Assembly: GCA_964614915.1 (NCBI GenBank)
Contig: CAZTNC010000011.1
Span: 280,705 to 344,704 of the forward strand
Length of the DNA stretch: 64,000 nt
Reading direction: 5' to 3'
Origin: an uncultured Thiotrichales bacterium
Lineage (GTDB): Bacteria; Pseudomonadota; Gammaproteobacteria; UBA4575
Part shown: positions 8,411 to 38,239 of the stretch, in pieces
Position numbering within the stretch: the stretch's first letter is position 1
Layout: the number at the start of each line of letters is the position of its first letter
The notes under the pieces: model-generated
Told to the model about the DNA's origin: nothing
Databases searched by the model: none
The model's input: the letters and a program-made list of their open reading frames with translations, nothing else
Program-made: the position numbers and the translations under genes

Positions 8411-9565
8411 TCAGAGGCCTGTCCTTGTAAAAAGACACTCCCGACCGATATTTTCAATCGATGCGCATCCGGCCAGTGACATGGCGAATTCCAGCTCGTT
8501 GCGAACCAGCTTGATGAGGTGTGCAACGCCCAGGCGACCCGCTATGGCCAGTGCATAGACTTGCGGTCGACCAATCATCACGGCATCGGCGCCCATGGCA
8601 ATGGCCTTGAACACATCGTATCCGCTTCTAATTCCACCATCCATGAGCAGCGGGAAATCATCACCGACGGCCTCGCGGATTTCGGGCAGGCAATGAATGC
8701 TGGCCGGCATCGCATCCAGGCCCCTGCCACCGTGATTAGACACCGCAATACAGTCGATGCCCATATCGACCAGACGCCTGGCATCCTGCGGATGCGTCAC
8801 CCCCTTTGCAATCGTGGGCAGCGAGGTCTGTTCAAGTATCCAGGCCAGCTCGTCCCAGCCTGGCGCCTCGCTCATCATGCCTTGGAAAATCGGGCTTTGA
8901 TCGGGCTGCAGAACGGCTTGCGGCCGGGGGGCTGAATCGGTCAGGTTTGCCGGGCGGGCATGATCGGGCAGGACAAACCCGGCTCTCAATGCACGATAGA
9001 TGGGGGCCTGAATGGGCACGTTCAGGGTCACCATGAGGGCGCCGAAGCCTGCTTCTTCTGCGCGGCCAATCAACGTCTGAGTGTGCTCACGGGAAGACTG
9101 AATGTAGAGCTGGAACCACTTCGGCGCATCGGTTTCTGCGGCGATCTCCTCCATGGGTTTGGAGGCCAGGGTACTGACGACGAGCCCTGCCTCCTGTTCT
9201 GCGGCACCTGCGGCTGTGGCGAGTTCTCCTTGTGGGTGCACCAGGGTTTGTGCGCTCACCGGTGCGAGTAGCACGGGATGACGGAATGGCTGCCCGAGCA
9301 GCGTCACCCGCGTTGAGGCTTCCCTGAGGTCCTGCAGGATTCGGCTGTGCAGCTCGATGTCTGCCAGTGCCCGAAGGTTTGCGTGCAGGGCCAGCTCGCT
9401 ACCGCTGCCGCCAGCAATTTGTGCCAGGGCCGCAGCCCCGATGAATTCGGGGGCAAGCCGCTCGTAATCAGACGGGGCTGCCAGTTCGGATGAGATCACA
9501 TCCAGAGGCTCCCGCAGAGCAGAGAATTGAGTTTTTGTGCCGCCCATAGTCGTATGGTTACACAA
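8411..9565 (-). CDS. FMN-dependent alpha-hydroxy acid dehydrogenase/oxidase (LldD / glycolate oxidase family)
   Basis: SNHGGRGLD active-site motif and a TIM-barrel FMN family pattern (PxxLAPxxxQ, GADAVMIGRP). The start may be the internal Met at 9547. Confidence 0.75.
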   Translation of the reverse strand: MCNHTTMGGTKTQFSALREPLDVISSELAAPSDYERLAPEFIGAAALAQIAGGSGSELALHANLRALADIELHSRILQDLREASTRVTLLGQPFRHPVLLAPVSAQTLVHPQGELATAAGAAEQEAGLVVSTLASKPMEEIAAETDAPKWFQLYIQSSREHTQTLIGRAEEAGFGALMVTLNVPIQAPIYRALRAGFVLPDHARPANLTDSAPRPQAVLQPDQSPIFQGMMSEAPGWDELAWILEQTSLPTIAKGVTHPQDARRLVDMGIDCIAVSNHGGRGLDAMPASIHCLPEIREAVGDDFPLLMDGGIRSGYDVFKAIAMGADAVMIGRPQVYALAIAGRLGVAHLIKLVRNELEFAMSLAGCASIENIGRECLFTRTGL

Positions 9566-9619
9566 ATTCTTCTACCCGCCTACTGACAGCCCCCAGGGCC
9601 GCCTTGGCCTCATTTCAGT

Positions 9620-10978
9620 TCAGGCTTTTTTGAAGCGCCAGCCGTACATCATGCGGCCGTAAAAGTTGAACCAGTGCCTCGCCTCGGCATCCTGGAACGG
9701 GTAGTCGGCACCGAGTTGCCTTGCCGTGGCCAGACCAGTCACGAAACAGGTCTCCTGGCTGTTGATCAGCGTGTGTGCGCCGCAGTGCCAGGTTCGTCTT
9801 TTCCCCTGGATGAAGCGAAACATCAGGATGAGCAGGGCCACCTGGCGCACATCATGCACGATGTGCTGGAACCACCACCGCTTGATGATCTTGTCCTCAT
9901 CGATACGGCTGATCGGGTTGTAGGTCACCAGGCAGGGCTTGTCCGAGCGTTTTGCCCAGGGCTGTTGGTTGTGCATGATGTAGGTGATCTCGTAATTGTC
10001 CGGGCGCACCCCGTACTGCTCGATGTGGTTACTGCGGGTATCGATCTCCCTGACCTCCGTGTCCGGCAGCACCGAGGCATCCGAATGTACGATCGTATGA
10101 TTATGCAGTTCGCTCTCGTAACGGACCGAGGAGAGTAGCCAGTTCTCCAGAAGGGTCGGTTGGTCCAGCATCATCAGCGTCTGGTTCGCATTGCACGCGA
10201 ACACCACGTCATCGTAGGTCTCTCTTTTCCCATTCTCGTCCTCGACGACAACCTCGTTCTCGCGCCGGTACACCTTACGGACCGGTCGCTCCAGGTAGAT
10301 CTTGTCCCGGAACTCCTTGGACAGGCTTTCGTAGATGCGCCGCGTGCCCTGGTCCCAGGACTTCATCGGCGTGGCGGTTTCGATGTCGAAGAACTCCAGG
10401 TAGCGGGAAAACAGCGCGGCCGGCATGTCGAACACGTTGGTGGCCATCAGGAAGTTGACGAACATAGGCTTGAGGATCTTGTAGCGGAAGTCGCCCGAGA
10501 AGCGCCCGAGGTTGAGCAGTGTGCCCATGCTGACGTAGTTGAACGGGTTGAGCGCATTGAGCAGGGCGGACCTCGAGCGGTTCAGTCGGCCGAACCACTT
10601 CAGGCGCCTCAGCAGTTTCTGGAACTTCTCGATTTCCGGCAGCAGCTGCCGACGGATGTCGGAGTCGAAATCGTGCGCGTAGACCCCGCCTTTGTACTTC
10701 ACGCTGTAGCTGAAGCGGGTGTCGATCAGGTCGATGCCGTATTGCTGCATGACCAGCACGATATGGTGGTAGGCTGAGGGGATACAGGCGGTGACGGAAA
10801 TATCGAACGGGATCGAGCCGCCGTCCTCCTGCGGCATGTCCACCGTGATGGCGTTGCCGCCGATCCGCGACTGGGCCTCGTAAATTCTGAAATCGAACCG
10901 CTCGGGGTGGTGGTGCAGCGCCCAGGCCACACCCAGTCCCGAGACTCCCCCACCGATAATTGCGACTTTCCTTGGCAT
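9620..10978 (-). CDS. FAD/NAD(P)-binding amine-oxidase-like oxidoreductase (COG2907-like)
   Basis: N-terminal Rossmann MPRKVAIIGGGVSGLGVAWAL...EAQSRIGGN. C-terminal RTWHCGAHTLINSQETCFVTGLATARQLG resembles the COG2907 C-terminus (recognised from memory, no search run). Start chosen at MPRKV (452 aa); the tracked ORF extends 59 aa upstream. Confidence 0.6.
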   Translation of the reverse strand: MPRKVAIIGGGVSGLGVAWALHHHPERFDFRIYEAQSRIGGNAITVDMPQEDGGSIPFDISVTACIPSAYHHIVLVMQQYGIDLIDTRFSYSVKYKGGVYAHDFDSDIRRQLLPEIEKFQKLLRRLKWFGRLNRSRSALLNALNPFNYVSMGTLLNLGRFSGDFRYKILKPMFVNFLMATNVFDMPAALFSRYLEFFDIETATPMKSWDQGTRRIYESLSKEFRDKIYLERPVRKVYRRENEVVVEDENGKRETYDDVVFACNANQTLMMLDQPTLLENWLLSSVRYESELHNHTIVHSDASVLPDTEVREIDTRSNHIEQYGVRPDNYEITYIMHNQQPWAKRSDKPCLVTYNPISRIDEDKIIKRWWFQHIVHDVRQVALLILMFRFIQGKRRTWHCGAHTLINSQETCFVTGLATARQLGADYPFQDAEARHWFNFYGRMMYGWRFKKA

Positions 10979-11171
10979 CCTCGCGACCTGCAAATCAAAG
11001 GCTGCTACTCTACTACGCTTGGCGGTTGCCTCCAACGAAATTCCATCACAGTTCGTGATGCCCATACAGCCCGGCCTGCCACGGTTATGAATCAGTGGCT
11101 TACACGGCCACGGTATTGCCAGTGGTGGACCGGTAGCGGTACCATACACGTGCATCTTGGAACGCAGGGCT

Positions 11172-12395
11172 ATGGTTAGGCGCCCGCCTTCACCGGATTG
11201 TGCAAAGCAGGAAAATCAGGACCTTCTAGACTCACATGCAGCACACCCAATGACTTCGGGACTGAGCACTTCCAATGGTTCCTCGTCGCCGCCGGTATTC
11301 GTGACCGGCGCAGCCGGGCATGTTGGCGCCAACCTCGTGCTGCGCCTGCTTGAGGACGGGGTCCGGGTACGTGTATTGCTCCGCCAAGGGGACAACAACG
11401 AGGCCATGGAGGGGCTGGAGGTGGAACGCATCTACGGGGACATCCGTGATCTCGATGACACCCGGCGTGCGCTTGAAGGTTGCCAGGGGGTCTATCATGT
11501 CGCCGCCATGATCTCCACTATCGAGGGTAACCATGCCTACCGCCGTAACATCTACGAATGCAACGTGCTGGGCACTCGCCATGTGCTGCAGGCTGCGCGC
11601 GAAGCCGGGGCCGGACGGGTGGTGGTGACGGGTTCTTTCAGTGCCGTCGGTTACGATCTGGACAACCCGTCTTTGCCCAGCGACGAGACGATGCAGTTCT
11701 ATCCCATGGAACGCACCATGCCCTACGAGCGCAGCAAGGCGCTCGTCGAGCACGAGTGCTGGCGTGCCGCAGCTCAGGGGCAGGATGTCATGGTCGCCAC
11801 CTGCTGTGCGGTGATCGGTGGTGCCGATTATTTCCCGTCGCGCCTTGGCAGAACCCTGTGCGACTATACCAACGGCAAGCTGCGTGCCTACGTGGACGGT
11901 GGATTTGAATTTGTTGCCGCGCGGGACATCGTGGAAGGGCACCTGCTGTGCATGGCGCACGGGCGCGCCGGGGAGAAGTACATTTTCAGCAGCGAGTACA
12001 AGACGATCTCCGAGATTCTTGACCTGTACGAGGAGGTTACCGGCATCTCGCGGCCCGGCCGGCGCATCCCCACGCACATGATGCTTGCCTTCTCGGAAGT
12101 GGCGAGCTTTTATCTCAGCCGCTTTCACCCGAGCTTCCCGCAGCGCTTCACGCCAGGTGCCATCCGCCTGCTGAAAAAGTGTCGCCACGCGGACACCGGC
12201 AAAGCAAAGCGCGAGCTTGGCTATTGCCCCACCAGTATCCTTGATGCGGTACACCAGGCGTACGCGTTTCACTATCACCGCGGTGCGATCCAGAACCCGC
12301 TTGCAAATCCCCCGCGCGAGGAGGCCCTGCGAGCGGTGCAACACCCCGTCTGCGGTGAGGACGTCTCCGTCGCCTCCGAAAGGGGCCCACTGTGA
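11172..12395 (+). CDS. NAD(P)-dependent 3-beta-HSD/extended-SDR family dehydrogenase, SdmB-like (candidate sterol C-4 decarboxylating dehydrogenase)
   Basis: VFVTGAAGHVGANLVLRLL Rossmann motif and a YERSK catalytic dyad. First gene of an overlapping operon with a Rieske oxygenase, a sterol reductase, CYP51 and OSC. Start is uncertain (TTG 11157, ATG 11172 or ATG 11250). Confidence 0.6.
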   Translation: MVRRPPSPDCAKQENQDLLDSHAAHPMTSGLSTSNGSSSPPVFVTGAAGHVGANLVLRLLEDGVRVRVLLRQGDNNEAMEGLEVERIYGDIRDLDDTRRALEGCQGVYHVAAMISTIEGNHAYRRNIYECNVLGTRHVLQAAREAGAGRVVVTGSFSAVGYDLDNPSLPSDETMQFYPMERTMPYERSKALVEHECWRAAAQGQDVMVATCCAVIGGADYFPSRLGRTLCDYTNGKLRAYVDGGFEFVAARDIVEGHLLCMAHGRAGEKYIFSSEYKTISEILDLYEEVTGISRPGRRIPTHMMLAFSEVASFYLSRFHPSFPQRFTPGAIRLLKKCRHADTGKAKRELGYCPTSILDAVHQAYAFHYHRGAIQNPLANPPREEALRAVQHPVCGEDVSVASERGPL

Positions 12396-13489
12396 GCGCG
12401 AGAGTGGATCCGCCTCCGGGCTTTGAGCAGGCCACCAACCTGCGCCAGCAGGTGCGCGCTACCGGGCTCGACCCGGATTACTGGTACGCCGTTGAGGAAG
12501 TGCGAAACATCAAGCCGGGCACCGTGGTCGAGGTCATCTTCTGGAAACGCTCGATTGCCCTGTATCGCTCGAACGACGGTTCGTTTCATGCGCTCGAGAA
12601 CCGCTGTGCGCATCGCCAGATCAAGCTTTCTTTGGGCGATGTGCAGGGCTGCAAGCTGGTATGCGCCTACCATGGCTGGGAGTATGATCAGGAGGGCCGC
12701 CGGGTCGACATCGTTCATGATGCCAGCAAGGGCGGTCTTCCGAAGCCCTCCATCCGGGCTTATCCCGTGAAGGTCCGTTACGGCATGGTGTGGCTGTTTC
12801 CCGGCAATCCCGAGCGTGCCGAGGAGCACCGAATCCCGGACATTCCCGAACTGGAAGGACCGGAACGCTGGGCATGTGTGCCGCTGAGCTTCACTTGGTC
12901 CGCCCACCACTCCATGATTATCGACAACGTCAGCGACTTCACACATGCTCATCTGCACCGCCGTTACCGCCCCTTTGAAGGCGCAACGCTGACCCGTTGC
13001 GAGACCATTGGCGACAACGTGCACCTGGCCTATGACACGAAGGTGGGGCGCGGGCGCATTTCAGGGCGGTTTGTCGATCACCGGCAGCTGGACACCAATC
13101 ACATGGACCTGTGCTTTGAATACCCCTACCAGTGGTCCAACACCGATGATGCGATCAAGCACTGGTTGTTCGTCTTGCCGATCGATGAGCGCACCACTCG
13201 GGTGTTCTTCATGTTCTATTTCAAGTCTCTGAAGATTCCCCTGCTGCCGGTCCATATCCCGCGTTTTGCCATGACCACGGTGTTGAAGCTGTCGAACCGC
13301 ATGCTGATCGCACCCCTGTTGGATCAGGACCGCTATGCGGTCGAAGCCGAGCAGCTGGGCTACGAGAAACACTGGGATGCAGCGCCCATCGAGTTCAATC
13401 CGGTGGTCAAGGCCTTCCAGAACGTGACCGTGCGCAAGTGGCAGGAATACCTGGCGCGCGAGGCGGAAAACGGCCGTGCCGTTGCCTGA
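12392..13489 (+). CDS. Rieske [2Fe-2S] non-heme iron oxygenase, SdmA-like (candidate sterol C-4 methyl oxidase)
   Basis: Rieske motifs CAHRQ and CAYHGW. Mononuclear iron motif D-F-T-H-A-H-L-H. GTG start overlaps the upstream stop (GTGA). It sits in the sterol operon. Confidence 0.65.
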   Translation: MSARVDPPPGFEQATNLRQQVRATGLDPDYWYAVEEVRNIKPGTVVEVIFWKRSIALYRSNDGSFHALENRCAHRQIKLSLGDVQGCKLVCAYHGWEYDQEGRRVDIVHDASKGGLPKPSIRAYPVKVRYGMVWLFPGNPERAEEHRIPDIPELEGPERWACVPLSFTWSAHHSMIIDNVSDFTHAHLHRRYRPFEGATLTRCETIGDNVHLAYDTKVGRGRISGRFVDHRQLDTNHMDLCFEYPYQWSNTDDAIKHWLFVLPIDERTTRVFFMFYFKSLKIPLLPVHIPRFAMTTVLKLSNRMLIAPLLDQDRYAVEAEQLGYEKHWDAAPIEFNPVVKAFQNVTVRKWQEYLAREAENGRAVA

Positions 13490-14576
13490 ACTCGCGGGCG
13501 AACCACTTCTGCTGTCGGGGGCAACCCTGCTTGAGTCCGCGGCCATGCTGGCGGTGTTTATCGGGGCCCTGTTCGCAGGCTCGATCCTGTTGCCCGGACA
13601 TCGCATCACCGGACCGCAGGTGGCAGGTCAGGTACGTACATATAAGCTCAACGGCTTCCTGCTGTTCTTGCTGACTGTGATCGCGGCAGGCACCGCCCAG
13701 CTCCTGGGCTGGTTTTCGCTCGCTGCGCTCTATACTCACTTTGGTGCCCTGTTCGTAGCCGCCAACGTATTCGCATTCGCCCTGTCCGCCTGGTTGTACT
13801 GGCGAGGGGTGAAGGTCCGGGAGGAACGCCCGGGGCTGTGGCGGGGCTTTTTCTTCGGCGTCGAACTCAACCCGAGTTGGCTCGGGGTGGACCTGAAGCT
13901 GTTCAGCTACCGACCCTCCCTGATCGGACTGGCCCTGCTCAACCTGTCCTTTGCCGTCGTGCAGTACGAAACCTATGGCGAACTGACCCTGGCCATGGTG
14001 CTCTACCAGGCCTTCACGTTCCTGTATGTACTCAACTACTTCCAGTTCGAACACGGCATGGTCCACACCTGGGACATCGTCAGTGAGCGTTTCGGCTGGA
14101 TGCTGGTCTGGGGCGACTATGTGCTGGTGCCGTTTTTCTACTGCCTCGCCGGCTGGTGGCTGGTTCATGCCACGGAGACGCTGTCAATGCTGGGTGCCGC
14201 AGCCATCGTCTCGCTGTTCGCGTTCGGCTTCTGGCTGTTTCGCGGCGCCAATGAGCAAAAGCACCGCTTCAAGCGTGACCCGGACGTGAAAATATGGGGG
14301 CGACCCGCCGAGACTTTGGATGGGCGCTTGCTGGTATCCGGCTTCTGGGGGATCGGGCGACATCTTAACTATACAGGCGAGATTTGCATCTACCTCTCGT
14401 TTACCCTGACTACCGGGTTCGCATCCTGGTTGCCGTACCTGCTACCGGCCTGGCTCGCAAGCCTGCTGTGGCACCGCTCCCGACGGGATGAACGCCGCTG
14501 CCGTGCCAAGTACGGAGAACTGTGGGGACGCTACAAGAAGCGGGTGCGCTATTCCATGTTGCCGTTCGTCTATTAG
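13476..14576 (+). CDS. Sterol reductase, ERG4/ERG24 family (likely delta-14 sterol reductase)
   Basis: Polytopic membrane protein. Family signatures GVELNPS (LNPR-like), LLVSGFWGIGRHLNYTGE and C-terminal HRSRRDERRCRAKYGELWGRY. GTG start at 13476; an alternative ATG lies at 13545. Confidence 0.8.
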   Translation: MPLPELAGEPLLLSGATLLESAAMLAVFIGALFAGSILLPGHRITGPQVAGQVRTYKLNGFLLFLLTVIAAGTAQLLGWFSLAALYTHFGALFVAANVFAFALSAWLYWRGVKVREERPGLWRGFFFGVELNPSWLGVDLKLFSYRPSLIGLALLNLSFAVVQYETYGELTLAMVLYQAFTFLYVLNYFQFEHGMVHTWDIVSERFGWMLVWGDYVLVPFFYCLAGWWLVHATETLSMLGAAAIVSLFAFGFWLFRGANEQKHRFKRDPDVKIWGRPAETLDGRLLVSGFWGIGRHLNYTGEICIYLSFTLTTGFASWLPYLLPAWLASLLWHRSRRDERRCRAKYGELWGRYKKRVRYSMLPFVY

Positions 14577-14584
14577 GAGCCGAA

Positions 14585-15991
14585 ATGGTGCAGCGATCAG
14601 ACAGGGTGACTACGGTGGGTTCTGCGAACCCTTCACCGCCAGACAGGGCCGTGCCCGAGATGGCCGGCGGCTGGCCGCTGATCGGCCACCTGCCGGAGTT
14701 TCTCAAGGATCCGGTCTCAATGCTGGCGCGCGGCTGGGAGGAACAGGGTGAGCTTTTCCAGTTTCGCATCGGCCCGCGCAAATTTGTGCTCTTCTCCGGG
14801 CCCGAGGCCCACGATTTCTATTTCAGAACGCCCGAGGAGCAGCTGAATGCCAAGGCCGTCTACCAGTTCACGGTGCCCATCTTCGGGCGTGGCGTGGCGT
14901 ACGACATTTCCCCGGAATTGATGGCCGAGCAGTTGGGGTTTCTGTACCCGGCGCTTCGTGAATCCGCGATGCGCAGATTTGCCCGTATCATGTTTGCGGA
15001 GACCAGCCGCTTTGCCGATGCCCTCGGCGAATCCGGAGAAATCGATCTGCCGCACGCGATGAACGAACTCACCGTCAAGATCGCAAGTCGCTGCCTGATT
15101 GGAGAAGAAGTCAGGGCACAGGTGGACACGGGGTTTGCCGAGGCCTATCACGATCTGCAAAACGGCATCAATACCTTGGGGTTCTTCCTCCCCAGGCTGC
15201 CGACCCCGGCCCATCGCACCCGCGACCGGGCCCGGCAAAAAGTGGCCGAGATCTTCAGCCGGGTCATGACGGAACGCCGGCGCACCGGAGCGCAGCCCGA
15301 CGATTTCATGCAAACGCTCATGCACGCCCGGTACAAGGATGGCCGCGCACTGAGCGACGACGAGATTACCGGCATCCTGCTGACGGTGCTGTTTGCGGGA
15401 CAGCACACGAGTGCCGTGCTCGCGACCTGGACGTTGCTAGAGCTTTTAAGAACGCCCACCTACCTGGAGCGCATCCGGGACGAGATGCAGGAGGTCTACC
15501 GCGAGAGTGCGCAGGTGAGTCTTGCGAGTCTCAAGCAGCAGGTGGCCTTGGAGCACGCCGTGCGTGAAGGGGAGCGACTGCATCCGCCATTGATCATGCT
15601 GATCCGCAAGGTACTCAAGCCCTTGCAATACAAGGGCTACAGCGTGCCGGAAGGCACCCTGGCTGTGGTGTCACCGGCGGTCTCTCATCGCTTGCCGCAC
15701 GTCTTTGCCGACCCGGAACGTTTTGCTCCAGAGCGTTTTGACCCGCCAGCCAGTGAGGACAAGCAGCACCACTTCGCCCTGATCGGTTTTGGCGGCGGCA
15801 AACACCGGTGCATGGGCAAGCATTTTGCGGTCATGCAACTGAAAGCGATCTGGACCGTGCTGCTCGATCGCTTCGACTTTTATCTCGACTCTGAATTTCC
15901 CGCCCCGAATTACGGCAGCTGGGTGACCGGTCCGGTGGAGCCCTGCCGGCTGCGCTACCGGCGACGCCCAAGCACGGGGCTGCTCCAGTGA
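14585..15991 (+). CDS. cyp51: Sterol 14-alpha demethylase cytochrome P450 (CYP51)
   Basis: Heme-thiolate FGGGKHRCMG. CYP51-specific I-helix AGQHTS. B' helix YQFTVPIFGRGVAYD. AGGAG ribosome-binding site 6 nt upstream of ATG 14585. No C-terminal ferredoxin domain. Confidence 0.85.
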   Translation: MVQRSDRVTTVGSANPSPPDRAVPEMAGGWPLIGHLPEFLKDPVSMLARGWEEQGELFQFRIGPRKFVLFSGPEAHDFYFRTPEEQLNAKAVYQFTVPIFGRGVAYDISPELMAEQLGFLYPALRESAMRRFARIMFAETSRFADALGESGEIDLPHAMNELTVKIASRCLIGEEVRAQVDTGFAEAYHDLQNGINTLGFFLPRLPTPAHRTRDRARQKVAEIFSRVMTERRRTGAQPDDFMQTLMHARYKDGRALSDDEITGILLTVLFAGQHTSAVLATWTLLELLRTPTYLERIRDEMQEVYRESAQVSLASLKQQVALEHAVREGERLHPPLIMLIRKVLKPLQYKGYSVPEGTLAVVSPAVSHRLPHVFADPERFAPERFDPPASEDKQHHFALIGFGGGKHRCMGKHFAVMQLKAIWTVLLDRFDFYLDSEFPAPNYGSWVTGPVEPCRLRYRRRPSTGLLQ

Positions 15992-17340
15992 ACGGTGCCT
16001 CGGCCCGGCGTTACGATGTAGCCATCGTCGGTGCGGGTCCGGTCGGCAGCCTGTGCGCACTGGCCCATGCACGAAAGGGCGCTCGGGTGATCCTGCTCGA
16101 AGCCAATCCCAAGGCTTCCCTGCGTCTAGCCGGCGAATGGCTGCATCCTCCCGCCGTGCGCATCTTGCGCGATCTTGAGGTTGATCTGGGCTTGCCGCTC
16201 AGCGATCCCAGGGGCAAGGGTTTTGCCGTGTTCCCGGAAGACGGTACGGAGCCGATCGTCTTTCCCTATCCGCAAGGCGCCCGGGGGCTGACCTGCGAGC
16301 ATGCCTCACTGGTCTCGAACCTGCGCGAAGCGGTCGGCTGTCACCCCGAGATCGAGTTCCTTGTTCATGCCCGCGTGCGCGAGGTCGAGGACGGCCGCCT
16401 CACGTTCAGCTACAACGGCACGGACGAAACGGTGATGGCGCCGCGCATCGTCGGTGCTGACGGCCAGGCATCGATCGTGCGTCAATCGCTGGGACTGTCG
16501 AAAAACCCGGTGATCTGCTCCCAGACGGTGGGTGTGGTTCTGAGCGGGGTGACGTTGCCGCTGGAAGGTTACGGGCATGTGTTGCTCGGTGGTCCGGGCC
16601 CCGTACTCATCTACCGTCTCGACGAGCAGCATGTGCGGTTGATCGTCGATGTCCCGCTGGAGCGCACCACGCCCCGGGACCGCATCGGGTTCCTGCTGGA
16701 TTCGTATACCGACCTGCTGCCGGGACCCTTTCGCACGGCATTTGTCGATGCATTGCGTGCCGGCCAATTCCATGTTGCCGCCAACAAGCTGAGACCACGG
16801 CTCACCTACGGGAATGCACAGCGTGTTCTGATCGGCGATGCGGCAGGACACTACCACCCAATGACGGCTATGGGAATGACTTTTGGTTTCGGTGATGCGG
16901 TGGCGCTCGCCGAGAGCGATGACTTTCGCGACTTTACCCACCAGCGCATCCGCGCTACCCGGGGTCCGGCGTTTCTCGCCATGGGACTCTATGAGGTGTT
17001 TGCCGATCACCGTGCAGAGGCAGTCGCCTTCCGACACACGATTTACCGAAGTGCCCGCACCAATACGGCGTTCAGGGACCAGACCGTGCGATTACTCGCT
17101 TGTGAAGACACTTCATCAATCCGCATGGGGATTGCCTTTGTCACGACCGTGGCGCGTGCCATCGTCGAGCAAATCCCGCGATCCTTCAACCACCTCGCAT
17201 GGCGACGAGCACGCGATGTGCTTCGAGCGATTACGATCCGGATCAGCTGGTTTTTGCGAAGCATACTGCAACTCTCCAGGGCGAGAAGCGGCAAAGGGGA
17301 ACTGGACTCCGAATCGTGGAACACGCTGGCTGGCGTGCTT
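15988..17340 (+). other. Squalene epoxidase domain of the fusion protein (approx. aa 1-450)
   Basis: Rossmann FAD motif at aa 10-25. GD-AAGHYHPMT motif at aa 283-300. Confidence 0.7.
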
Positions 17341-19428
17341 CAGATCTCCATGCCTGCCAAAGCCCGAGACCCTCAGCCCAGTCGCCCGAAGGAAGTGCCC
17401 TCCCTCGATGCCACGGCTGCACTGCAGCATGCAGTTACGCGCTTGCTGGAGCTGCAGGGCAAGGAGGGTGGCTGGGAAGGCGAGATGGTCTGGTGTCCCA
17501 TGCTGACGGCACAGTACGTATTGTTGCATTACATCATCGGCAGACCCTTGGAACCTACCCGGCGCAGGCTCGTGCTGCGCTCGTTCGAACATACCCGTCT
17601 TGAAGGGGGCACATGGGGGATGCACGAGCACTCCCGGCCCCACCTGTTCGTCACCACCCTGGTCTACGTAGCGGCGAGACTGCTCGGCATCGAACGCGAG
17701 GATCCGTTGCTCGTGCCAGCGAGACAATTCCTGCAGGCCGAGGGGGTGCTCGCCATTCCGAGCTGGGGGAAGTTCTGGCTGGCCCTTCTCAATCTATACG
17801 ACTGGCGCGGTGTCAATGCCGTGCTGCCGGAGTTGTGGAGCCTGCCGCGCTGGATTGCGCTGCATCCCTCAAACTGGTACTGCCACACCCGGCTGATCTA
17901 CATGGCCATGTCGGTGATGTATTCGCATCGGTTCCAGGCCCCGATAACTCCCCTGATCACGTCCTTGCGTGAGGAGTTGTACCCGCAGGGGTTTGACTCT
18001 GTCAATTTCTACCAGGGCCGCAACCGCCTGCGAGACGCCGACCTTTTCTCACGGCCTAGCATATGGCTTCGGATCGGCTATCGTCTTGCGCAGGTATTCG
18101 AGCGCTACCACGGGCAACGCTTTCGCAATCGGTGTGTGGAAGCGATCCTGCATCAGATTCGGTGGGAGTTGCAGACCACCAGCCATACGAGTATTTCTCC
18201 GGTCAGCGGTATCCTGAACATGCTTGCCCTGTGGCTGCGCGATCCCGACGACCCGGATCTGCACCAGGCGCTCGACCAGCTGGAAGGTTGGATCTGGGAA
18301 GACGAGGCGATGGGGGCACGTGTCACAGGTGCAAGAAGCGCCTCGTGGGATACCGGGTTTGCATTGCAGGCGCTGGCCTTGATGAGTGAAGTTGAAGGGG
18401 TAGGGGATGCCCGCATGGCGGGTGCCGAGTTTCTGTACCGACAGCAGATCACCACCAGCTTCGAAGGCTATCGCGAGGCCTACCGAAACGACCCCAAGGG
18501 CGGCTGGTGTTTTGCTGGCGGATGGCATGGCTGGCCGGTATCCGACTGTACGGCCGAGGCTGTGCTTGGACTGATCGCCACCCATCGCGAGACGACAGAC
18601 CAAACCGTGCTTCGCGATGCGATTCGGTTCATGTTGCGCAGTCAAAACCGTGACGGTGGCTTTGGCAGCTACGAATCCCAACGTTCCGTTCTCGGGCTCG
18701 AGTGGCTGAATCCTGCCGAGATGTTCGGTGAATCGATGACCGAGCATTCCTACATTGAATGCACCGCATCGTGTCTTGCGGCGTTCGCCGCCTGCCGGGA
18801 GCACTTCCCGAAACTCGCTGATCGGCAATTGATGGAGGCGATCTTGCGGGCGGATAACTGGATTCGCTGGTCCCAGGCCAGTGACGGGTCCTGGCGTGGC
18901 GTGTGGGGTGTTCAGTTCATTTATGGCACGCTGTTCGGGATCCGGGGCCTGTTGGCCACCGGTGCTGGTACCGGTGATCCGGCATTGCGCCAGGCTTGCC
19001 AGTGGTTGCTGGAGCGCCAGCGCGATGACGGCGGGTGGGGTGAACACCACAGCGGCTGTCTGAGTGGCCAATACATCGCGCATGAACAAAGTCAGGTCAT
19101 CCAGACCGCGTGGGCGCTGATTGCGCTCCTTGAGGCGGGGGATTCGAGCTGGAACGCGATTTCCAAGGGTGCTAGGTTTTTGCTCGATGCCCAGCAAGAA
19201 GACGGGTCTTGGCCCAGGCAAGACATGGCCGGGGTCTTTTTCCGCACGGCCCTGCTGGATTATGTTCTTTATCGGCAGTATTTCCCGATGCATGCGCTCG
19301 GACTCTACGAGCAGCGGCGCAGAGCCCGCCAGGATCTGACGAATCCCGTCATTCACAACGTCGCTGCAAGACCGTCTGAACCTGGAGATGCTTCAAAGTC
19401 GGCGGAGCGTTTGCGCTCCTCAGCCTAG
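15988..19428 (+). CDS. Fused squalene monooxygenase (squalene epoxidase) - oxidosqualene cyclase, 1146 aa
   Basis: N-terminal 450 aa carry FAD-binding YDVAIVGAGPVGS and the epoxidase motif IGDAAGHYHPMTAMGMTFGFGD. The C-terminal 690 aa align with lanosterol/cycloartenol synthases (AIPSWGKFWLALLNLYDWRG, catalytic VSDCTAEA, several QW motifs such as LLERQRDDGGWGE). It is one uninterrupted frame. The GTG start overlaps the cyp51 stop. Confidence 0.85.
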   Translation: MNGASARRYDVAIVGAGPVGSLCALAHARKGARVILLEANPKASLRLAGEWLHPPAVRILRDLEVDLGLPLSDPRGKGFAVFPEDGTEPIVFPYPQGARGLTCEHASLVSNLREAVGCHPEIEFLVHARVREVEDGRLTFSYNGTDETVMAPRIVGADGQASIVRQSLGLSKNPVICSQTVGVVLSGVTLPLEGYGHVLLGGPGPVLIYRLDEQHVRLIVDVPLERTTPRDRIGFLLDSYTDLLPGPFRTAFVDALRAGQFHVAANKLRPRLTYGNAQRVLIGDAAGHYHPMTAMGMTFGFGDAVALAESDDFRDFTHQRIRATRGPAFLAMGLYEVFADHRAEAVAFRHTIYRSARTNTAFRDQTVRLLACEDTSSIRMGIAFVTTVARAIVEQIPRSFNHLAWRRARDVLRAITIRISWFLRSILQLSRARSGKGELDSESWNTLAGVLQISMPAKARDPQPSRPKEVPSLDATAALQHAVTRLLELQGKEGGWEGEMVWCPMLTAQYVLLHYIIGRPLEPTRRRLVLRSFEHTRLEGGTWGMHEHSRPHLFVTTLVYVAARLLGIEREDPLLVPARQFLQAEGVLAIPSWGKFWLALLNLYDWRGVNAVLPELWSLPRWIALHPSNWYCHTRLIYMAMSVMYSHRFQAPITPLITSLREELYPQGFDSVNFYQGRNRLRDADLFSRPSIWLRIGYRLAQVFERYHGQRFRNRCVEAILHQIRWELQTTSHTSISPVSGILNMLALWLRDPDDPDLHQALDQLEGWIWEDEAMGARVTGARSASWDTGFALQALALMSEVEGVGDARMAGAEFLYRQQITTSFEGYREAYRNDPKGGWCFAGGWHGWPVSDCTAEAVLGLIATHRETTDQTVLRDAIRFMLRSQNRDGGFGSYESQRSVLGLEWLNPAEMFGESMTEHSYIECTASCLAAFAACREHFPKLADRQLMEAILRADNWIRWSQASDGSWRGVWGVQFIYGTLFGIRGLLATGAGTGDPALRQACQWLLERQRDDGGWGEHHSGCLSGQYIAHEQSQVIQTAWALIALLEAGDSSWNAISKGARFLLDAQQEDGSWPRQDMAGVFFRTALLDYVLYRQYFPMHALGLYEQRRRARQDLTNPVIHNVAARPSEPGDASKSAERLRSSA
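17350..19428 (+). other. Oxidosqualene cyclase domain of the fusion protein (approx. aa 455-1146)
   Basis: DCTAE catalytic aspartate motif at aa 853-857 (nt 18544-18558). QW repeats. The region aligns with human LSS from about residue 60 onward. Confidence 0.75.
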
Positions 19429-19468
19429 TCCCGAATAAGGAAGTGCGCGGGCACAGCGCCCGGCACGT

Positions 19469-20503
19469 TCAGTCTCTCGAAGGCAGGGGTTTTCGGGCCA
19501 GGAAGTAATACATCGGGGTAAAGATGCCGGTCTCACCCCCCTCGACCAGCGCATCCGCTCCCTCGTTCAAGATCGTACTGACCGCCCGGGTGCCTTCCGG
19601 GACCAGCTTCAGGGGCTCCAGCACCCTCAATACGATGTTCGTCAGGGCACGACCCATCGGCGTGCGAGGGATACTCGAAAGCGTCAGGTCGCGGCCCTGT
19701 AGAGCGCGGTACCAGGGAGTTTCCGGGTCCGATTCAAGGGCGAGGTCACGGGCTTCCAGAAGTTCGAATCCGGCTTCACGAAAGGCCGCACACACTTCGG
19801 TGGTGCGCGCGATATCCGGCAAGGCGTCTCCGACCTCGATATCTTTCTTGATTCTCAGGTGCTCTGCATTCTGCGGATCGAAATCATCGGTGAGGCACCA
19901 CTCGTAGCCGGCAAAGCATGCCCCCGGGCGCAGGATGCGAAAGACCTCCCGGAACGCCTCGGTCTTGTTGGGCGCGTGAGGCATGGACTCGATGGCGAAG
20001 GCGCCATCATAGCTGTCGTCCTCTTCGGGGATTTGCATGTAGTTGCCATGAATAAAACGGCACTGCGACTGGATATCCTGGGTATGCACTTTCGCGCGCT
20101 CAATCTGGTAGGCGTTATTGTTGATCCCCACAAAGCTAGCCCCGGAATAACGGGCCAGGGTGTGCATCGGGCCGCCCACGCCGCAGCCCACATCGAGCAC
20201 CTGCATCAACGGTTTCAGGTCCAGTTGGTCCGCCAGAAAATGCTCATGTCTGAGCAGCGACGCCTTGAAGCTTTCCCCCTTGCGTCGCGGAGCGAAATGA
20301 AAGGATCGCCCCCAACCGAACTCGTAAAAGTCCGTCACCAGGTCGTAGTAGTGGTTGACGAGCGACTGGTAGTGCTCTTTTCTACGCTCCGGGGAGTCGG
20401 TTTCGTGGAGTCCGGCATATTGATCGACTACCGACTTCACGTGCTCCGGGGCAAGATCCGCGAGTGAGCGAGAACTTGATCTTTTGACGGGTTCGCGGGT
20501 CAT
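19469..20503 (-). CDS. Sterol 24-C-methyltransferase (ERG6/SMT family)
   Basis: Diagnostic SMT region I YEFGWGRSFHF. SAM motif LDVGCGVGGP. Region II IESMPHAP. C-terminal sterol-MT-like domain. 344 aa. Convergent with the sterol operon. Confidence 0.8.
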   Translation of the reverse strand: MTREPVKRSSSRSLADLAPEHVKSVVDQYAGLHETDSPERRKEHYQSLVNHYYDLVTDFYEFGWGRSFHFAPRRKGESFKASLLRHEHFLADQLDLKPLMQVLDVGCGVGGPMHTLARYSGASFVGINNNAYQIERAKVHTQDIQSQCRFIHGNYMQIPEEDDSYDGAFAIESMPHAPNKTEAFREVFRILRPGACFAGYEWCLTDDFDPQNAEHLRIKKDIEVGDALPDIARTTEVCAAFREAGFELLEARDLALESDPETPWYRALQGRDLTLSSIPRTPMGRALTNIVLRVLEPLKLVPEGTRAVSTILNEGADALVEGGETGIFTPMYYFLARKPLPSRD

Positions 20504-20569
20504 CGGATGATTATGCCGGGTTCGTGCGGCTTCTCCAAATCGATGCTCAACATTATTTGACGGATTTGA

Positions 20570-20643
20570 TGGGCCCGGTAGGACTCGAACCTACGACCAA
20601 AGGATTATGAGTCCTCTGCTCTAACCAACTGAGCTACAGGCCC
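20570..20643 (-). tRNA. ileX: tRNA with CAU anticodon; sequence and synteny suggest tRNA-Ile2 (lysidine) rather than elongator Met
   Basis: 74-nt cloverleaf: 7-bp acceptor stem GGGCCTG/CGGGCCC, D arm GCTC...GAGC, anticodon loop CTCATAA, T arm GTAGGTTCGAGTCCTAC. No encoded CCA. Closely resembles E. coli ileX, which also lies downstream of rpoD. Confidence 0.85.
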
Positions 20644-20667
20644 GGACGGTTTGTCTCAAGAAGGATT

Positions 20668-37289: not shown

Positions 37290-37342
37290 CGCACTTCGAG
37301 ATCACGGGCCTGTTTTGACAGTTGTGGGTGCCACCGCCGCCT

Positions 37343-38239
37343 TCAGGCATCGGGCAACAGTTGCTGTTCCTGGAATTCTCGCACCGCAGATACACAGTCC
37401 ACCGGCTTTTCCAGTTGAAGAAGATGTGTGGTCTCAGGGATGAAATCATAATCGACAGTCAGGACATCGCTGAGATCGAAGGTTGGCAGATAGGCATACG
37501 GCAAGGTCGGGTCCGCCCCGATGACCTTCGTCGGACACGGGAGCGTCTCAAAGTCCACCAGCGGGGAAAAGCTTCGGACATAATCGGTGATTTGGGCTTC
37601 GTATTCGCGTGGGCAACGCAGCTCATACCCCAGCCCGTCGGGAACCTCGCGAAGCGTGGTCTTGGCCATGAGTTCCCGGACCCCGGGAACCACATGGGTG
37701 AAGGTCGGGATGTAGCTCAGGAAATCAGAAAATTCTTCCTCCGTCTGGAATCGGTATCCGCGTCGGCGCGTCAGCGATGCAGCGTGTTCGGCAGCCACGT
37801 CAAATTCGGTCTGGCTGGCACCAGGCTTGCATACGGGCGGGTCAAATAGAATCTGTGCAGAGCAGCTGTTGTCCTGCGGCGCCGAAAGCAGCGAGATCAG
37901 CGCTGAGACGGAGTGTAATACCCCGATCTTGGGTTTGTTGCCATAGTGGCGGTCGATGGATTCCAGTATCAGGGCATAATCCTGTATTAGTACGGGAACG
38001 TTGTGGTCGCGGCGCTCGCCCACGGAATTCCAGCCATGGTTTCTGAGGTCATAGAGGATTAGTTCGTAGTCCTCGGCAAGCAGCGACCAGAACGGGTAAT
38101 ACAGGTCAATGGCAAGACCGTTGCCGTGACAAAGCACAAGCCGAGGCCCTGACGGATTGCCGTGCTGTCGCAAGTGCGTGACTGTATTTTGATCCAGTCG
38201 GACTTCACGCACTGAGATTGGTTCAGGAATTTCCCACAT
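37343..38239 (-). CDS. Alpha/beta-hydrolase fold protein (thioesterase/lipase-like), convergent with the PKS
   Basis: HG oxyanion motif (LVLCHGNG). Nucleophile elbow GVLHSVSA. C-terminal His region. 298 aa. Confidence 0.6.
   Translation of the reverse strand: MWEIPEPISVREVRLDQNTVTHLRQHGNPSGPRLVLCHGNGLAIDLYYPFWSLLAEDYELILYDLRNHGWNSVGERRDHNVPVLIQDYALILESIDRHYGNKPKIGVLHSVSALISLLSAPQDNSCSAQILFDPPVCKPGASQTEFDVAAEHAASLTRRRGYRFQTEEEFSDFLSYIPTFTHVVPGVRELMAKTTLREVPDGLGYELRCPREYEAQITDYVRSFSPLVDFETLPCPTKVIGADPTLPYAYLPTFDLSDVLTVDYDFIPETTHLLQLEKPVDCVSAVREFQEQQLLPDA

What the first reader, a model, noticed from the sequence alone, without database searches (positions are those of the whole stretch)
11172..14576. 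Bacterial-type C-4 demethylation pair (Rieske oxygenase plus SDR) and ERG24-like reductase chained by overlapping start and stop codons
There are no eukaryote-type C-4 demethylation enzymes (ERG25 methyl oxidase, ERG26 decarboxylase, ERG27 reductase). Instead a Rieske oxygenase (CxH...CxxH, DxxHxxxxH) and a 3-beta-HSD-like dehydrogenase sit together, matching the SdmA/SdmB system described for Methylococcus. The stop-start overlaps are GTGA at 12392-12395 and GTGA at 15988-15991, and there is a 14-bp overlap at 13476-13489. This implies tight co-translation across the operon.
Basis: partly seen in the sequence, partly recalled or inferred. Interest (0 to 1): 0.6.

Follow-up and report, generated by a model that had tools for sequence, protein, structure and literature searches.

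The report
Bacterial sterol-synthesis operon, sponge-symbiont type
This is a sterol-making operon from a sponge-associated bacterium that removes the C-4 methyl groups with the bacterial SdmA/SdmB enzyme pair, and this cluster type has already been published, so it is a correct but ordinary finding.

Summary
An extended SDR (11250-12395), a Rieske oxygenase (12392-13489) and an ERG4/ERG24 reductase (13476-14576) sit head to tail. The stated overlaps are real: GTGA at 12392-12395, 14 bp at 13476-13489, GTGA at 15988-15991.

The Rieske protein is 43% identical (E 2e-106) to Methylococcus SdmA, and the SDR is 43% identical (E 2e-82) to Methylococcus SdmB. Both match the NCBIfam SdmA/SdmB models over their full length, though below the 600-bit equivalog cut-off. 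KshA scores only 36-49 bits. The context is biosynthetic: CYP51, a fused squalene epoxidase::oxidosqualene cyclase and a sterol methyltransferase follow, and no steroid-degradation genes are in the window.

Corrections:
- The iron motif is DxxHxxxH, an SdmA-family signature, not DxxHxxxxH.
- The SDR most likely starts at ATG 11250, not 11172.
- The reductase lacks the N-terminal 55-80 residues of MaSR1.

The same operon, with the same junction geometry, occurs in 72-78 of 80 sponge-symbiont MAG loci from many phyla. It was described by Kelly 2022 and annotated sdmA/sdmB by Brown 2023, so this is a new member of a known kind.

The least explained part is a co-travelling amine-oxidase-fold flavoprotein (9620-10978).

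The parts
11250..12395 (+). sdmB-like extended SDR (381 aa from the conserved ATG; the ORF could extend back to TTG 11157 or ATG 11172). Proposed role: C-4 decarboxylase and 3-ketoreductase.
   Evidence: NCBIfam SdmB NF052578 scores 299 bits over the full length, with HpnA at 227. It is 43% identical to Methylococcus SdmB with TGxxGxxG and YxxxK aligned. The start is fixed by conservation and an upstream in-frame stop in L005. Present in 78/80 related loci.
12392..13489 (+). sdmA-like Rieske non-haem-iron oxygenase (365 aa). Proposed role: C-4 methyl oxidase. Its GTG start overlaps the sdmB stop (GTGA).
   Evidence: NCBIfam SdmA NF052579 scores 411 bits, profile positions 4-349 of 351. It is 43% identical to Methylococcus SdmA, E 2e-106. 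CxH, CxxH and the D-F-x-H-x-x-L-H motif are conserved. KshA scores only 36-49 bits.
13476..14576 (+). ERG4/ERG24-family sterol reductase (366 aa), most likely a delta-14 reductase. Its start overlaps the sdmA stop by 14 bp (or 8 bp if TTG 13482 is used).
   Evidence: Pfam ERG4_ERG24 scores 257 bits, profile positions 85-432. The best solved structure is MaSR1 4QUV at 257 bits, residues 26-366 against 79-427. The start is supported by codon-position analysis.
14585..15991 (+). CYP51-type P450 (sterol 14-alpha-demethylase homologue, 468 aa, no ferredoxin fusion). It follows an 8-nt spacer with an AGGAG Shine-Dalgarno sequence.
   Evidence: Pfam p450 scores 214 bits. Junction sequence. The corrected frame gives 65-97% identity across loci. 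Kelly 2022 and Brown 2023 annotate the same gene as CYP51/ERG11.
15988..19428 (+). Single 1146-aa ORF fusing a squalene epoxidase (N-terminal) to an oxidosqualene cyclase (C-terminal). Its GTG start overlaps the CYP51 stop (GTGA).
   Evidence: Pfam finds SE and FAD_binding_3 at residues 9-370 and SQHop_cyclase_N/C at 480-1108. NCBIfam osq_cycl scores 741 bits. The two parts are fused in 72/72 loci.
19469..20503 (-). Sterol C-24 methyltransferase (ERG6/SMT homologue, 344 aa), convergent with the operon.
   Evidence: Pfam Sterol_MT_C scores 85 bits, plus methyltransferase domains. Present near the cluster in 52-56 of 80 loci.
9620..10978 (-). Amine-oxidase-fold FAD protein (452 aa from Met60 of the ORF), transcribed divergently from sdmB. 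It travels with the cluster and its function is unknown.
   Evidence: Pfam Amino_oxidase. The best PDB matches are LkcE at 81-94 bits and 2b9w at 34 bits. Homologues are 81-96% identical and mostly 452 aa. It lies within 10 kb of the cluster in 31-33 of 80 loci.
10979..11249 (.). Divergent intergenic region between the flavoprotein gene and sdmB, the presumed promoter region. It contains a conserved block at about 11085-11150.
   Evidence: Alignment of the window with L001-L005. A sigma-70-like TTGCCA-18-TACCAT lies at 11116-11145, but the number of such sites in the region is not above the shuffled expectation.

Best explanation
The region is the front half of a biosynthetic sterol operon in a sponge-associated gammaproteobacterium.

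Shown by sequence:
- Five co-directional ORFs encode six activities: sdmB-like SDR, sdmA-like Rieske oxygenase, ERG24-type reductase, CYP51, and a fused squalene epoxidase::oxidosqualene cyclase.
- They are joined by 4-bp, 14-bp and 4-bp overlaps and one 8-nt spacer.
- A sterol methyltransferase gene lies convergent downstream.

Inferred pathway, from family membership and published biochemistry of homologues:
1. The fusion protein epoxidises and cyclises squalene.
2. CYP51 removes the 14-alpha methyl.
3. The ERG24-type enzyme reduces the resulting delta-14 bond.
4. The Rieske oxygenase oxidises a C-4 methyl stepwise, using electrons from a reductase or ferredoxin not encoded in the cluster.
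5. The SDR decarboxylates the product and re-reduces the 3-ketone.
6. The methyltransferase alkylates C-24.

The overlapping junctions probably couple translation so that the enzymes are made in fixed proportion. Whether one or both C-4 methyl groups are removed cannot be told from sequence.
For: - SdmA and SdmB are by far the best family matches, over the full length.
- Direct BLASTP to the Methylococcus pair, which itself passes the curated cut-offs, gives 43% identity for each protein with E 2e-106 and 2e-82.
- The D-F-x-H-x-x-L-H iron motif is shared with Methylococcus SdmA and absent from KshA-like, Sxt and Ddm proteins.
- The protein sits inside the SdmA family on an NJ tree, far from a KshA-like outgroup.
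- All ten 50%-cluster representatives tested from among the best full-length matches hit only the SdmA model.
- The ERG24-like protein matches the solved bacterial delta-14 reductase MaSR1 at 257 bits.
- Gene order and junction geometry are conserved in 72-78 of 80 loci from many phyla.
- Published annotation of the same architecture: the A. aerophoba scaffold has genes 16 to 9 as sdmB, sdmA, ERG24, ERG11, ERG1+ERG7 and SMT (PMC10070321). Ircinia MAG clusters are flanked by 'DFR + hypothetical protein' (PMC9531527).
- SdmA/SdmB homologues from Methylococcus, Calothrix and Enhygromyxa were shown to act in C-4 demethylation (PMC10202945).
Against: - No activity was measured for this clade.
- Both proteins fall below the NCBIfam equivalog cut-offs (411 and 299 against 600).
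- The SDR's margin over the HpnA model is modest (299 against 227).
- The E. salina SdmB homologue alone was insufficient for demethylation, so a single SDR does not guarantee a complete reaction.
- No reductase or ferredoxin partner and no squalene synthase is present in the window.
- The reductase lacks the N-terminal segment of MaSR1.
- Its specificity (delta-14 against delta-7 or delta-24(28)) was not resolved.
- Translational coupling is inferred from geometry only.
Confidence: 0.85

Rival explanations
1. The Rieske/SDR pair is catabolic. It would be a KshA-like steroid ring hydroxylase plus a dehydrogenase used to degrade host sterols.
For: Rieske oxygenases with a short C-terminal catalytic domain include KshA. 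Sponge tissue is rich in sterols. A weak match to KshA exists at 36-49 bits.
Against: The SdmA model scores 411 bits against at most 49 for KshA. Pfam gives VanA_C, not KshA_C. A real KshA_C protein from related loci is only about 20% identical. The iron-motif spacing differs. The operon partners are anabolic, namely the squalene epoxidase::cyclase fusion, CYP51 and SMT. No KstD, Hsa or Mce-type genes were found in the window.
Confidence: 0.02
2. The cluster tailors sterols or triterpenoids, but the Rieske/SDR pair does something other than C-4 demethylation. For example, it might stop at a C-4 aldehyde or carboxylate, or the SDR might be an HpnA-like protein acting on another position.
For: Both proteins are below the equivalog cut-offs, and the SDR scores 227 bits on HpnA. 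In E. salina, SdmA plus SdmB stop at the 4-methylaldehyde and need a second SDR, SdmC. This clade is only 41-47% identical to the characterised Methylococcales enzymes.
Against: True Methylococcus SdmB also scores 274 bits on HpnA, so that cross-hit is a family property. The sdmB-sdmA adjacency is conserved in nearly all loci (78 of 80 carry sdmB). Calothrix SdmAB alone remove both methyl groups. Brown 2023 found the equivalent sponge-cluster SDR 52% identical to Calothrix SdmB.
Confidence: 0.1
3. The stop/start overlaps are ordinary operon compaction with no special role in co-translation. Their conservation reflects common descent of a horizontally transferred cassette.
For: Short overlaps such as ATGA are the commonest junction type in bacterial operons (established knowledge). 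Other gene pairs in this window also overlap, for example 46441-47211 with 47204-48091. The 80 loci are related by descent, not independent. One junction, ERG24 to CYP51, is a plain spacer with a Shine-Dalgarno sequence.
Against: The exact -4, -14 and -4 geometry is kept while proteins diverge to 55-80% identity and the start codon itself changes among ATG, GTG and TTG. The Methylococcus sdmA-sdmB pair also overlaps by ATGA, although the gene order is reversed. The downstream epoxidase and cyclase are physically fused, which fits selection for fixed stoichiometry.
Confidence: 0.35

Closest known systems
Sponge-symbiont 'clusters of steroid genes' (Kelly et al. 2022, PMC9531527) and the sdmAB-containing sterol clusters of Aplysina aerophoba and Petrosia ficiformis metagenomes (Brown et al. 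2023, PMC10070321)
   Same: The gene order matches: SDR ('DFR'), Rieske ('hypothetical' or sdmA), ERG24, CYP51, a single gene hit by both ERG1 and ERG7, and a flanking SMT. The reported identities to MCA1016/MCA1017 (44-47%) are close to those measured here (43%). Hosts and phyla are the same as in the 80 loci recovered.
   Different: Nothing essential. This window is another genome carrying the cassette; its closest relatives are the Gammaproteobacteria MAGs OZ242174.1 and COS4_bin_31, at 98% Rieske identity. The papers searched and read here were not found to discuss the junction overlaps, the fusion as such or the flavoprotein.
Methylococcus capsulatus SdmA/SdmB (MCA1016/MCA1017; Lee et al. 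2018, as cited in PMC10202945)
   Same: Adjacent Rieske oxygenase and extended SDR. Each is 43% identical over its full length. They share the D-F-x-H-x-x-L-H motif and the SDR catalytic motifs. The two genes overlap by ATGA.
   Different: The gene order is reversed (sdmA then sdmB). In Methylococcus the pair sits next to bstABC-like transport genes, not in a full biosynthetic operon. Methylococcus lacks an ERG24 homologue and uses the NTF2-like 8,14-Bsr, and its CYP51 is fused to a ferredoxin. It removes only one C-4 methyl. The window proteins fall below the curated equivalog cut-offs.
Calothrix sp. NIES-4105 SdmAB and Enhygromyxa salina SdmABC (Lee et al. 2023, PMC10202945)
   Same: SdmA/SdmB homologues embedded among otherwise eukaryote-like sterol genes. 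On the tree, the closest non-sponge relatives here are a Chloroflexota MAG (64%) and a Sandaracinaceae myxobacterial MAG (58%). That Sandaracinaceae homologue also scores about 420 bits on the SdmA model.
   Different: Calothrix needs two proteins and E. salina needs three to remove both methyl groups. Only one SDR is in this cluster, and which behaviour applies is unknown. I did not have the Calothrix or E. salina sequences to compare directly.
MaSR1, delta-14 sterol reductase of Methylotuvimicrobium alcaliphilum (PDB 4QUV)
   Same: ERG4/ERG24 family, 257-bit match over residues 26-366. The C-terminal block LLxSGxWGxxRHxNYxG is aligned.
   Different: The window protein is 366 aa against 427 aa. 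It lacks the region matching MaSR1 residues 1-78, or Pfam profile positions 1-84.
Eukaryotic C-4 demethylation complex ERG25/ERG26/ERG27
   Same: The overall chemistry is the same, by inference: methyl oxidation, decarboxylation through a 3-ketone, then ketoreduction. The SDR has a weak 3Beta_HSD Pfam match of 73 bits.
   Different: The oxidase is a Rieske protein rather than a membrane di-iron FA_hydroxylase. One SDR stands in for two enzymes. No FA_hydroxylase gene is in the window.

Membership tests
SdmA (Rieske-type 4-methylsterol monooxygenase) | Rieske [2Fe-2S] ligands CxH...CxxH | tested here: met
   C72-A-H74 and C91-A-Y-H94 are invariant in 81 sequences. Pfam Rieske scores 71 bits.
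SdmA (Rieske-type 4-methylsterol monooxygenase) | Mononuclear-iron motif as in characterised SdmA (D-F-x-H-x-x-L-H, that is Hx3H) | tested here: met
   The window has DFTHAHLH and Methylococcus SdmA has DFNHEYLH. KshA-like, SxtT and DdmC proteins have Hx4H.
SdmA (Rieske-type 4-methylsterol monooxygenase) | Full-length sequence similarity to M. capsulatus SdmA (literature criterion: BLASTp below 1e-50 and at least 30% identity, PMC10202945) | tested here: met
   43% identity over 338 aa, E 2e-106, against P0483, which scores 710 bits on NF052579.
SdmA (Rieske-type 4-methylsterol monooxygenase) | NCBIfam NF052579 equivalog cut-off (600 bits) | tested here: not met
   The window scores 411 bits. 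Only Methylococcales sequences pass, at 710-714 bits. A Sandaracinaceae homologue scores 422 and a JGI-named '4beta-methylsterol monooxygenase' scores 576. The cut-off therefore appears to define the Methylococcales-type subgroup (the only sequences that passed it here) rather than the wider family.
SdmA (Rieske-type 4-methylsterol monooxygenase) | Encoded next to an sdmB homologue and with sterol-biosynthesis genes | tested here: met
   An sdmB-like SDR accompanies the Rieske gene in 78 of 80 loci.
SdmA (Rieske-type 4-methylsterol monooxygenase) | Oxidises the C-4 methyl of 4,4-dimethyl or 4-methyl sterols | not testable with these tools
   This needs heterologous expression and GC-MS.
SdmB (SDR decarboxylase/3-ketoreductase) | Extended-SDR cofactor and catalytic motifs (TGxxGxxG, Ser, YxxxK) | tested here: met
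   TGAAGHVG, TGSFSAVG and YERSK align with the Methylococcus SdmB motifs.
SdmB (SDR decarboxylase/3-ketoreductase) | Closest family model is SdmB, with full-length similarity to Methylococcus SdmB | tested here: met
   NF052578 scores 299 bits over profile positions 4-327 of 328, with HpnA at 227. Identity is 43%, E 2e-82.
SdmB (SDR decarboxylase/3-ketoreductase) | NCBIfam NF052578 equivalog cut-off (600 bits) | tested here: not met
   299 bits, against 690 bits for Methylococcus SdmB.
SdmB (SDR decarboxylase/3-ketoreductase) | Decarboxylation and 3-keto reduction activity, and the number of methyl groups removed | not testable with these tools
   Homologues behave differently in Methylococcus, Calothrix and E. 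salina.
ERG4/ERG24 sterol reductase (delta-14 reductase) | Family domain and similarity to a characterised delta-14 reductase | tested here: met
   Pfam ERG4_ERG24 scores 257 bits against a cut-off of 27. MaSR1 4QUV scores 257 bits, and a 592-aa delta-14 reductase scores 154 bits.
ERG4/ERG24 sterol reductase (delta-14 reductase) | Full-length architecture, including the N-terminal transmembrane segment | tested here: not met
   The match covers profile positions 85-432 and MaSR1 residues 79-427 only. The ORF cannot extend further upstream.
ERG4/ERG24 sterol reductase (delta-14 reductase) | Specificity for delta-14 rather than delta-7 or delta-24(28) | tested here: inconclusive
   The only solved relatives are delta-14 reductases. 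The position directly upstream of CYP51 fits delta-14. No DHCR7 or ERG4 reference sequences were available for comparison.
KshA (3-ketosteroid 9-alpha-hydroxylase, catabolic) | KshA-type C-terminal catalytic domain and closest similarity to KshA | tested here: not met
   There is no KshA_C hit. KshA structures score 36-49 bits, ranked 12th to 16th. The KshA_C protein of L012 is about 20% identical.
Eukaryote-type C-4 demethylation (ERG25/26/27) | FA_hydroxylase-family methyl oxidase present | tested here: not met
   No FA_hydroxylase hit appeared in any scanned ORF of the window. The rest of the genome could not be examined.

The most novel reading that the evidence does not exclude
The sponge-symbiont SdmB/SdmA clade might remove both C-4 methyl groups with a single SDR. 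The co-travelling amine-oxidase-fold flavoprotein (9620-10978) might be an unrecognised sterol-tailoring enzyme, for example an FAD-dependent double-bond isomerase, desaturase or saturase. Together with the SMT, that would let symbionts from many phyla make 4-desmethyl, side-chain-alkylated 'sponge-type' sterols de novo from one horizontally spreading, translationally coupled cassette.
Probability: 0.25. Interest if true: 0.6.

Novelty: new member of a known kind. Interest (0 to 1): 0.28.

Why it matters
Sterols with alkylated side chains are used as molecular fossils for early animals, and bacterial production inside sponges complicates that reading. This locus adds one more complete, compact example of the cassette. 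It shows directly that the cassette's two unnamed genes are true SdmA/SdmB relatives. Public annotation still labels them 'aromatic ring-hydroxylating dioxygenase', and KEGG-based pipelines label them 'dihydroflavonol reductase' and 'hypothetical protein'.

The practical gains are modest:
- a corrected gene model;
- a family-specific iron motif, DFxHxxLH;
- calibration of the NCBIfam cut-offs;
- a conserved flavoprotein flagged as an untested candidate pathway member.

Tried and rejected
- **Structure prediction.** AlphaFold2 models of the Rieske protein and the flavoprotein, built on alignments of 43 and 34 close homologues, gave mean pLDDT of 46 and 49. They were too poor to use, so no fold search was run.
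- **Source look-up.** Exact look-ups of the window's Rieske protein and of the 100%-identical flavoprotein P0276 returned nothing. The source record was not identified beyond 'NCBI, 349-kb contig'.
- **Naming representatives.** Cluster look-up of the 50%-cluster representatives gave no organism names. I anchored the family by scoring them on NCBIfam instead, and by a further search from P0124 that recovered a named Methylococcus protein.
- **My own error.** In some searches the CYP51 query started at 14586 instead of 14585 and was out of frame. The CYP51 identities and the ERG24-to-CYP51 and CYP51-to-SQMO junction figures from those calls are wrong. One search supersedes them.
- **Promoters and terminators.** The scan over 9400-20800 found no more sites than shuffled sequence does, so no transcription start or terminator is claimed.
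- **Catabolic reading.** Rejected, as set out under the rivals.
- **HpnA reading of the SDR.** Rejected as the primary reading, because genuine SdmB cross-hits HpnA equally strongly.
- **Accessory genes from other loci.** A 244-aa membrane protein, an MMPL transporter, a LolA-like protein, squalene synthase and a KshA-like Rieske were searched for in the window and are absent.

Full report
**What is in the sequence**

The window carries co-directional ORFs on the + strand between about 11.2 and 19.4 kb. Pfam assigns them as follows:
- an extended SDR (Epimerase 119 bits, 3Beta_HSD 73 bits);
- a Rieske protein with a VanA_C-type catalytic domain;
- an ERG4/ERG24 reductase (257 bits);
- a cytochrome P450;
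- a 1146-aa protein with a squalene-epoxidase N-terminal half and an oxidosqualene-cyclase C-terminal half (NCBIfam osq_cycl 741 bits).

A sterol methyltransferase with the Sterol_MT_C domain lies convergent just downstream. An amine-oxidase-fold flavoprotein is transcribed divergently just upstream.

The flanks are housekeeping genes: aceE/aceF, ald and phoX on one side, and rpoD, dnaG, aroB and aroK on the other. Further along there are a type I PKS and a phosphopantetheinyl transferase. Nothing in the window resembles steroid catabolism or a eukaryote-type ERG25 methyl oxidase.

**Checking the stated coordinates**

- GTGA at 12392-12395;
- GTG 13476 overlapping the TGA at 13487-13489;
- GTGA at 15988-15991.

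The fourth junction, reductase to P450, is not an overlap. The TAG stop at 14574-14576 lies inside an AGGAG Shine-Dalgarno sequence, and the P450 ATG is at 14585.

Two details need correcting.

First, the SDR start. The upstream ATG at 11172 is not conserved among relatives. ATG 11250 is conserved in all eight loci aligned, including distant ones, and one locus has an in-frame stop four codons upstream of it. The flavoprotein likewise most probably starts at Met60 of its ORF (10978), because most homologues are 452 aa. That leaves a 271-bp divergent intergenic region.

Second, the iron motif. The motif 'DxxHxxxxH' is not present. The protein has D182-F-T-H185-A-H-L-H189.

**Are the start codons real?**

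I recovered 80 related loci from species-representative genomes and mapped the window proteins onto them.
- A start codon sits exactly 4 nt inside the SDR stop in 48 of 77 loci (ATGA 25, GTGA 19, TTGA 4).
- A start codon sits 14 nt inside the Rieske stop in 47 of 75 loci, and 8 nt inside in 27.
- A start codon sits 4 nt inside the P450 stop in 63 of 72 loci.
- For the reductase, 35 loci share identical spacing. The codon at -14 is ATG or GTG in 28 of them. Codons 13-24 vary mostly at third positions, so translation begins upstream of the internal Met24.

The overlaps are therefore genuine features of the gene models and are conserved. Overlaps of this kind are common in operons generally. They indicate an operon and make translational coupling likely, but they do not prove it.

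**Is the Rieske/SDR pair SdmA/SdmB?**

NCBIfam now holds models for both proteins. The Rieske protein scores 411 bits on SdmA (NF052579) across positions 4-349 of 351, and the next family scores 35 bits. The SDR scores 299 bits on SdmB (NF052578) across 4-327 of 328, followed by HpnA at 227 bits. Both are below the curated 600-bit cut-offs.

To calibrate this I needed a named reference sequence. A search of 1.84 billion cluster representatives showed a compact family: 86 representatives at E below 1e-30. All ten full-length representatives tested hit only the SdmA model, at 245-496 bits. A further search from one of them recovered a protein named for Methylococcus.

That protein scores 710 bits on the SdmA model, and its downstream neighbour scores 690 bits on the SdmB model. 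Direct comparison gives:
- 43% identity over 338 residues, E 2e-106, for the Rieske proteins;
- 43% identity over 331 residues, E 2e-82, for the SDRs, with cofactor and catalytic motifs aligned.

A Sandaracinaceae homologue scores 422 bits, about the same as the window protein. The 600-bit cut-off was passed only by the Methylococcales sequences tested, so it does not appear to mark the limit of the family. Genuine SdmB also cross-hits HpnA at 274 bits, so that second hit is not a warning sign.

**Is it KshA-like instead?**

It is not.
- KshA structures score 36-49 bits, well behind the saxitoxin, dicamba and caffeine demethylase oxygenases.
- Pfam finds VanA_C rather than KshA_C.
- A true KshA_C-type Rieske gene occurs beside the cluster in some Binatia-type loci. 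It is only about 20% identical and serves as a long-branch outgroup.
- The profile alignment to SxtT shows that the SdmA-like proteins have one residue fewer between the two histidine ligands.
- The resulting D-F-x-H-x-x-L-H motif is shared by the window protein, all sponge-clade members, Methylococcus SdmA and most other family members examined. It is absent from the KshA-like protein.

**The reductase**

Its best solved relative is MaSR1, the delta-14 sterol reductase of a methanotroph. The match is 257 bits over residues 26-366 against 79-427. The protein and its orthologues are about 350-366 aa and lack the N-terminal segment of MaSR1. The ORF cannot extend further upstream.

Its position directly before CYP51 fits delta-14 reduction, but I could not discriminate this from delta-7 or delta-24(28) specificity.

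According to PMC13277303, most methanotrophs lack an ERG24 homologue and use an NTF2-like 8,14-reductase, and their CYP51 is fused to a ferredoxin. Here the P450 is unfused and the reductase is of the canonical type.

**Where the cassette occurs**

The 80 best loci are all metagenome-assembled genomes. Most come from sponge-microbiome MAG sets, judging from the isolate names, the sponge-derived Candidatus taxa and the Ircinia study. They are assigned to Gammaproteobacteria, Alphaproteobacteria, Nitrospirales, Binatia, Thermodesulfobacteriota, Opitutales and others.

Gene order sdmB, sdmA, ERG24, CYP51, epoxidase::cyclase is kept in 72-78 of them. Median protein identities to the window are 61-79%. 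The epoxidase and cyclase are one ORF in all 72 loci that contain both. On a neighbour-joining tree the sponge sequences form one tight clade regardless of host phylum. Their nearest outside relatives are a Chloroflexota MAG (64%) and a Sandaracinaceae MAG (58%). Methylococcales lie in a different clade, at 41-43%. This pattern fits horizontal spread of the whole cassette.

**Comparison with the literature**

This is already published.

Kelly et al. 2022 described 'clusters of steroid genes' (ERG24, CYP51, LSS) in 115 of 537 Ircinia MAGs across 10 phyla. They reported evidence of horizontal transfer and purifying selection. The clusters were usually preceded by 'dihydroflavonol-4-reductase and a hypothetical protein', and the authors suspected that SdmA/SdmB were hidden among the hypotheticals.

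Brown et al. 2023 annotated sdmA and sdmB in such clusters. Their Supplementary Data 1 lists consecutive genes on an A. aerophoba scaffold as sdmB (45% to MCA1017, 52% to Calothrix sdmB), sdmA (47% to MCA1016), ERG24, ERG11, and one gene matched by both ERG1 and ERG7, followed by SMT genes.

Lee et al. 2023 showed that SdmA/SdmB homologues behave differently between organisms: one methyl is removed in Methylococcus, both in Calothrix, and a third protein is needed in E. salina. The number of methyl groups removed here therefore cannot be inferred.

**Most likely mechanism**

Shown: the gene content, the homologies, the operon geometry and its conservation.

Inferred:
1. Squalene is epoxidised and cyclised by the fusion protein.
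2. CYP51 removes the 14-alpha methyl.
3. The ERG24-type enzyme reduces the delta-14 bond.
4. The Rieske oxygenase oxidises a C-4 methyl, using an electron donor encoded elsewhere.
5. The SDR decarboxylates the product and reduces the 3-ketone.
6. The methyltransferase alkylates C-24.

The coupled junctions and the fusion suggest selection for fixed enzyme ratios. I put about 0.85 on the biosynthetic SdmA/SdmB reading.

**What remains open**

The flavoprotein at 9620-10978 is the least explained element.
- It has 81-96% identical homologues in more than a hundred 90%-identity clusters from several phyla.
- It lies within 10 kb of the cassette in about 31-33 of 80 loci, in varying positions.
- Its only solved relatives are LkcE and, weakly, 2b9w. 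From memory, 2b9w is an FAD-dependent fatty-acid double-bond isomerase.
- No paper in the searchable library links such a protein to bacterial sterol clusters.
- Structure prediction failed.

**Verdict**

The locus is a new member of a published kind of cluster, so interest is low to moderate.

Noticed in passing
window 9620-10978 (-): An amine-oxidase-fold FAD protein (452 aa) is transcribed divergently from sdmB. It is very highly conserved across phyla (81-96% identity) and lies within 10 kb of the sterol cassette in about 31-33 of 80 loci. Its only solved relatives are LkcE and, weakly, 2b9w. No paper found links it to sterol synthesis, so it is a candidate unknown sterol-tailoring enzyme.
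   Followed up: partly
window 15988-19428 (+): Squalene epoxidase and oxidosqualene cyclase are fused in one 1146-aa ORF. The fusion is present in all 72 related loci that have both parts. It is visible only implicitly in Brown 2023 Supplementary Data 1, where one gene id is hit by both ERG1 and ERG7.
   Followed up: partly
window 19469-20503 (-): A sterol C-24 methyltransferase (Sterol_MT_C domain) lies convergent with the operon. Of the related loci, 13 carry two or three SMT copies.
   Followed up: partly
window 27648-39061: A 3213-aa type I polyketide synthase (KS-AT-DH-MT-ER-KR-ACP-KS) is followed on the opposite strand by an alpha/beta hydrolase and a phosphopantetheinyl transferase. From memory, it resembles the PKS types widespread in sponge symbionts.
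   Followed up: no
window about 11085-11150: A conserved non-coding block lies in the sdmB/flavoprotein intergenic region and is shared with L001-L005. It includes a TTGCCA-18-TACCAT promoter-like site and an inverted repeat TGGTA...TACCA, which could be an operator.
   Followed up: no
window 62741-63925 (+): This ORF has a fatty-acid-desaturase N-terminal part and an ISL3 transposase C-terminal part. It may be an insertion-disrupted gene or a read-through, and it sits near the window edge.
   Followed up: no
L030:16959-17693 (-) and 24 other loci: A 244-aa predicted membrane protein with no Pfam match lies next to the cyclase gene in 25 related loci. It is absent from this window and could be an unrecognised sterol isomerase or a similar enzyme.
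   Followed up: partly
L012:4204-5280 (+) and 7 other loci: A second Rieske oxygenase, of the KshA_C type, lies beside the sterol cassette in Binatia-type loci. It has the canonical DxxHxxxxH motif. Its function there is unknown.
   Followed up: no
L082:375-8093 (Methylococcus chromosome CP079097.1): In Methylococcus, sdmA and sdmB follow an FA_hydroxylase gene and MMPL/Phosphonate-bd transport genes. The sdmA stop and the sdmB start overlap as ATGA at 7107-7110.
   Followed up: partly
L026:18731-21025 (-), L050:1968-2813 (+): An MMPL transporter with sterol-sensing-domain similarity and a LolA-like protein recur near the cassette in 16 and 9 loci respectively. They may export sterols. Neither is in this window.
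   Followed up: no
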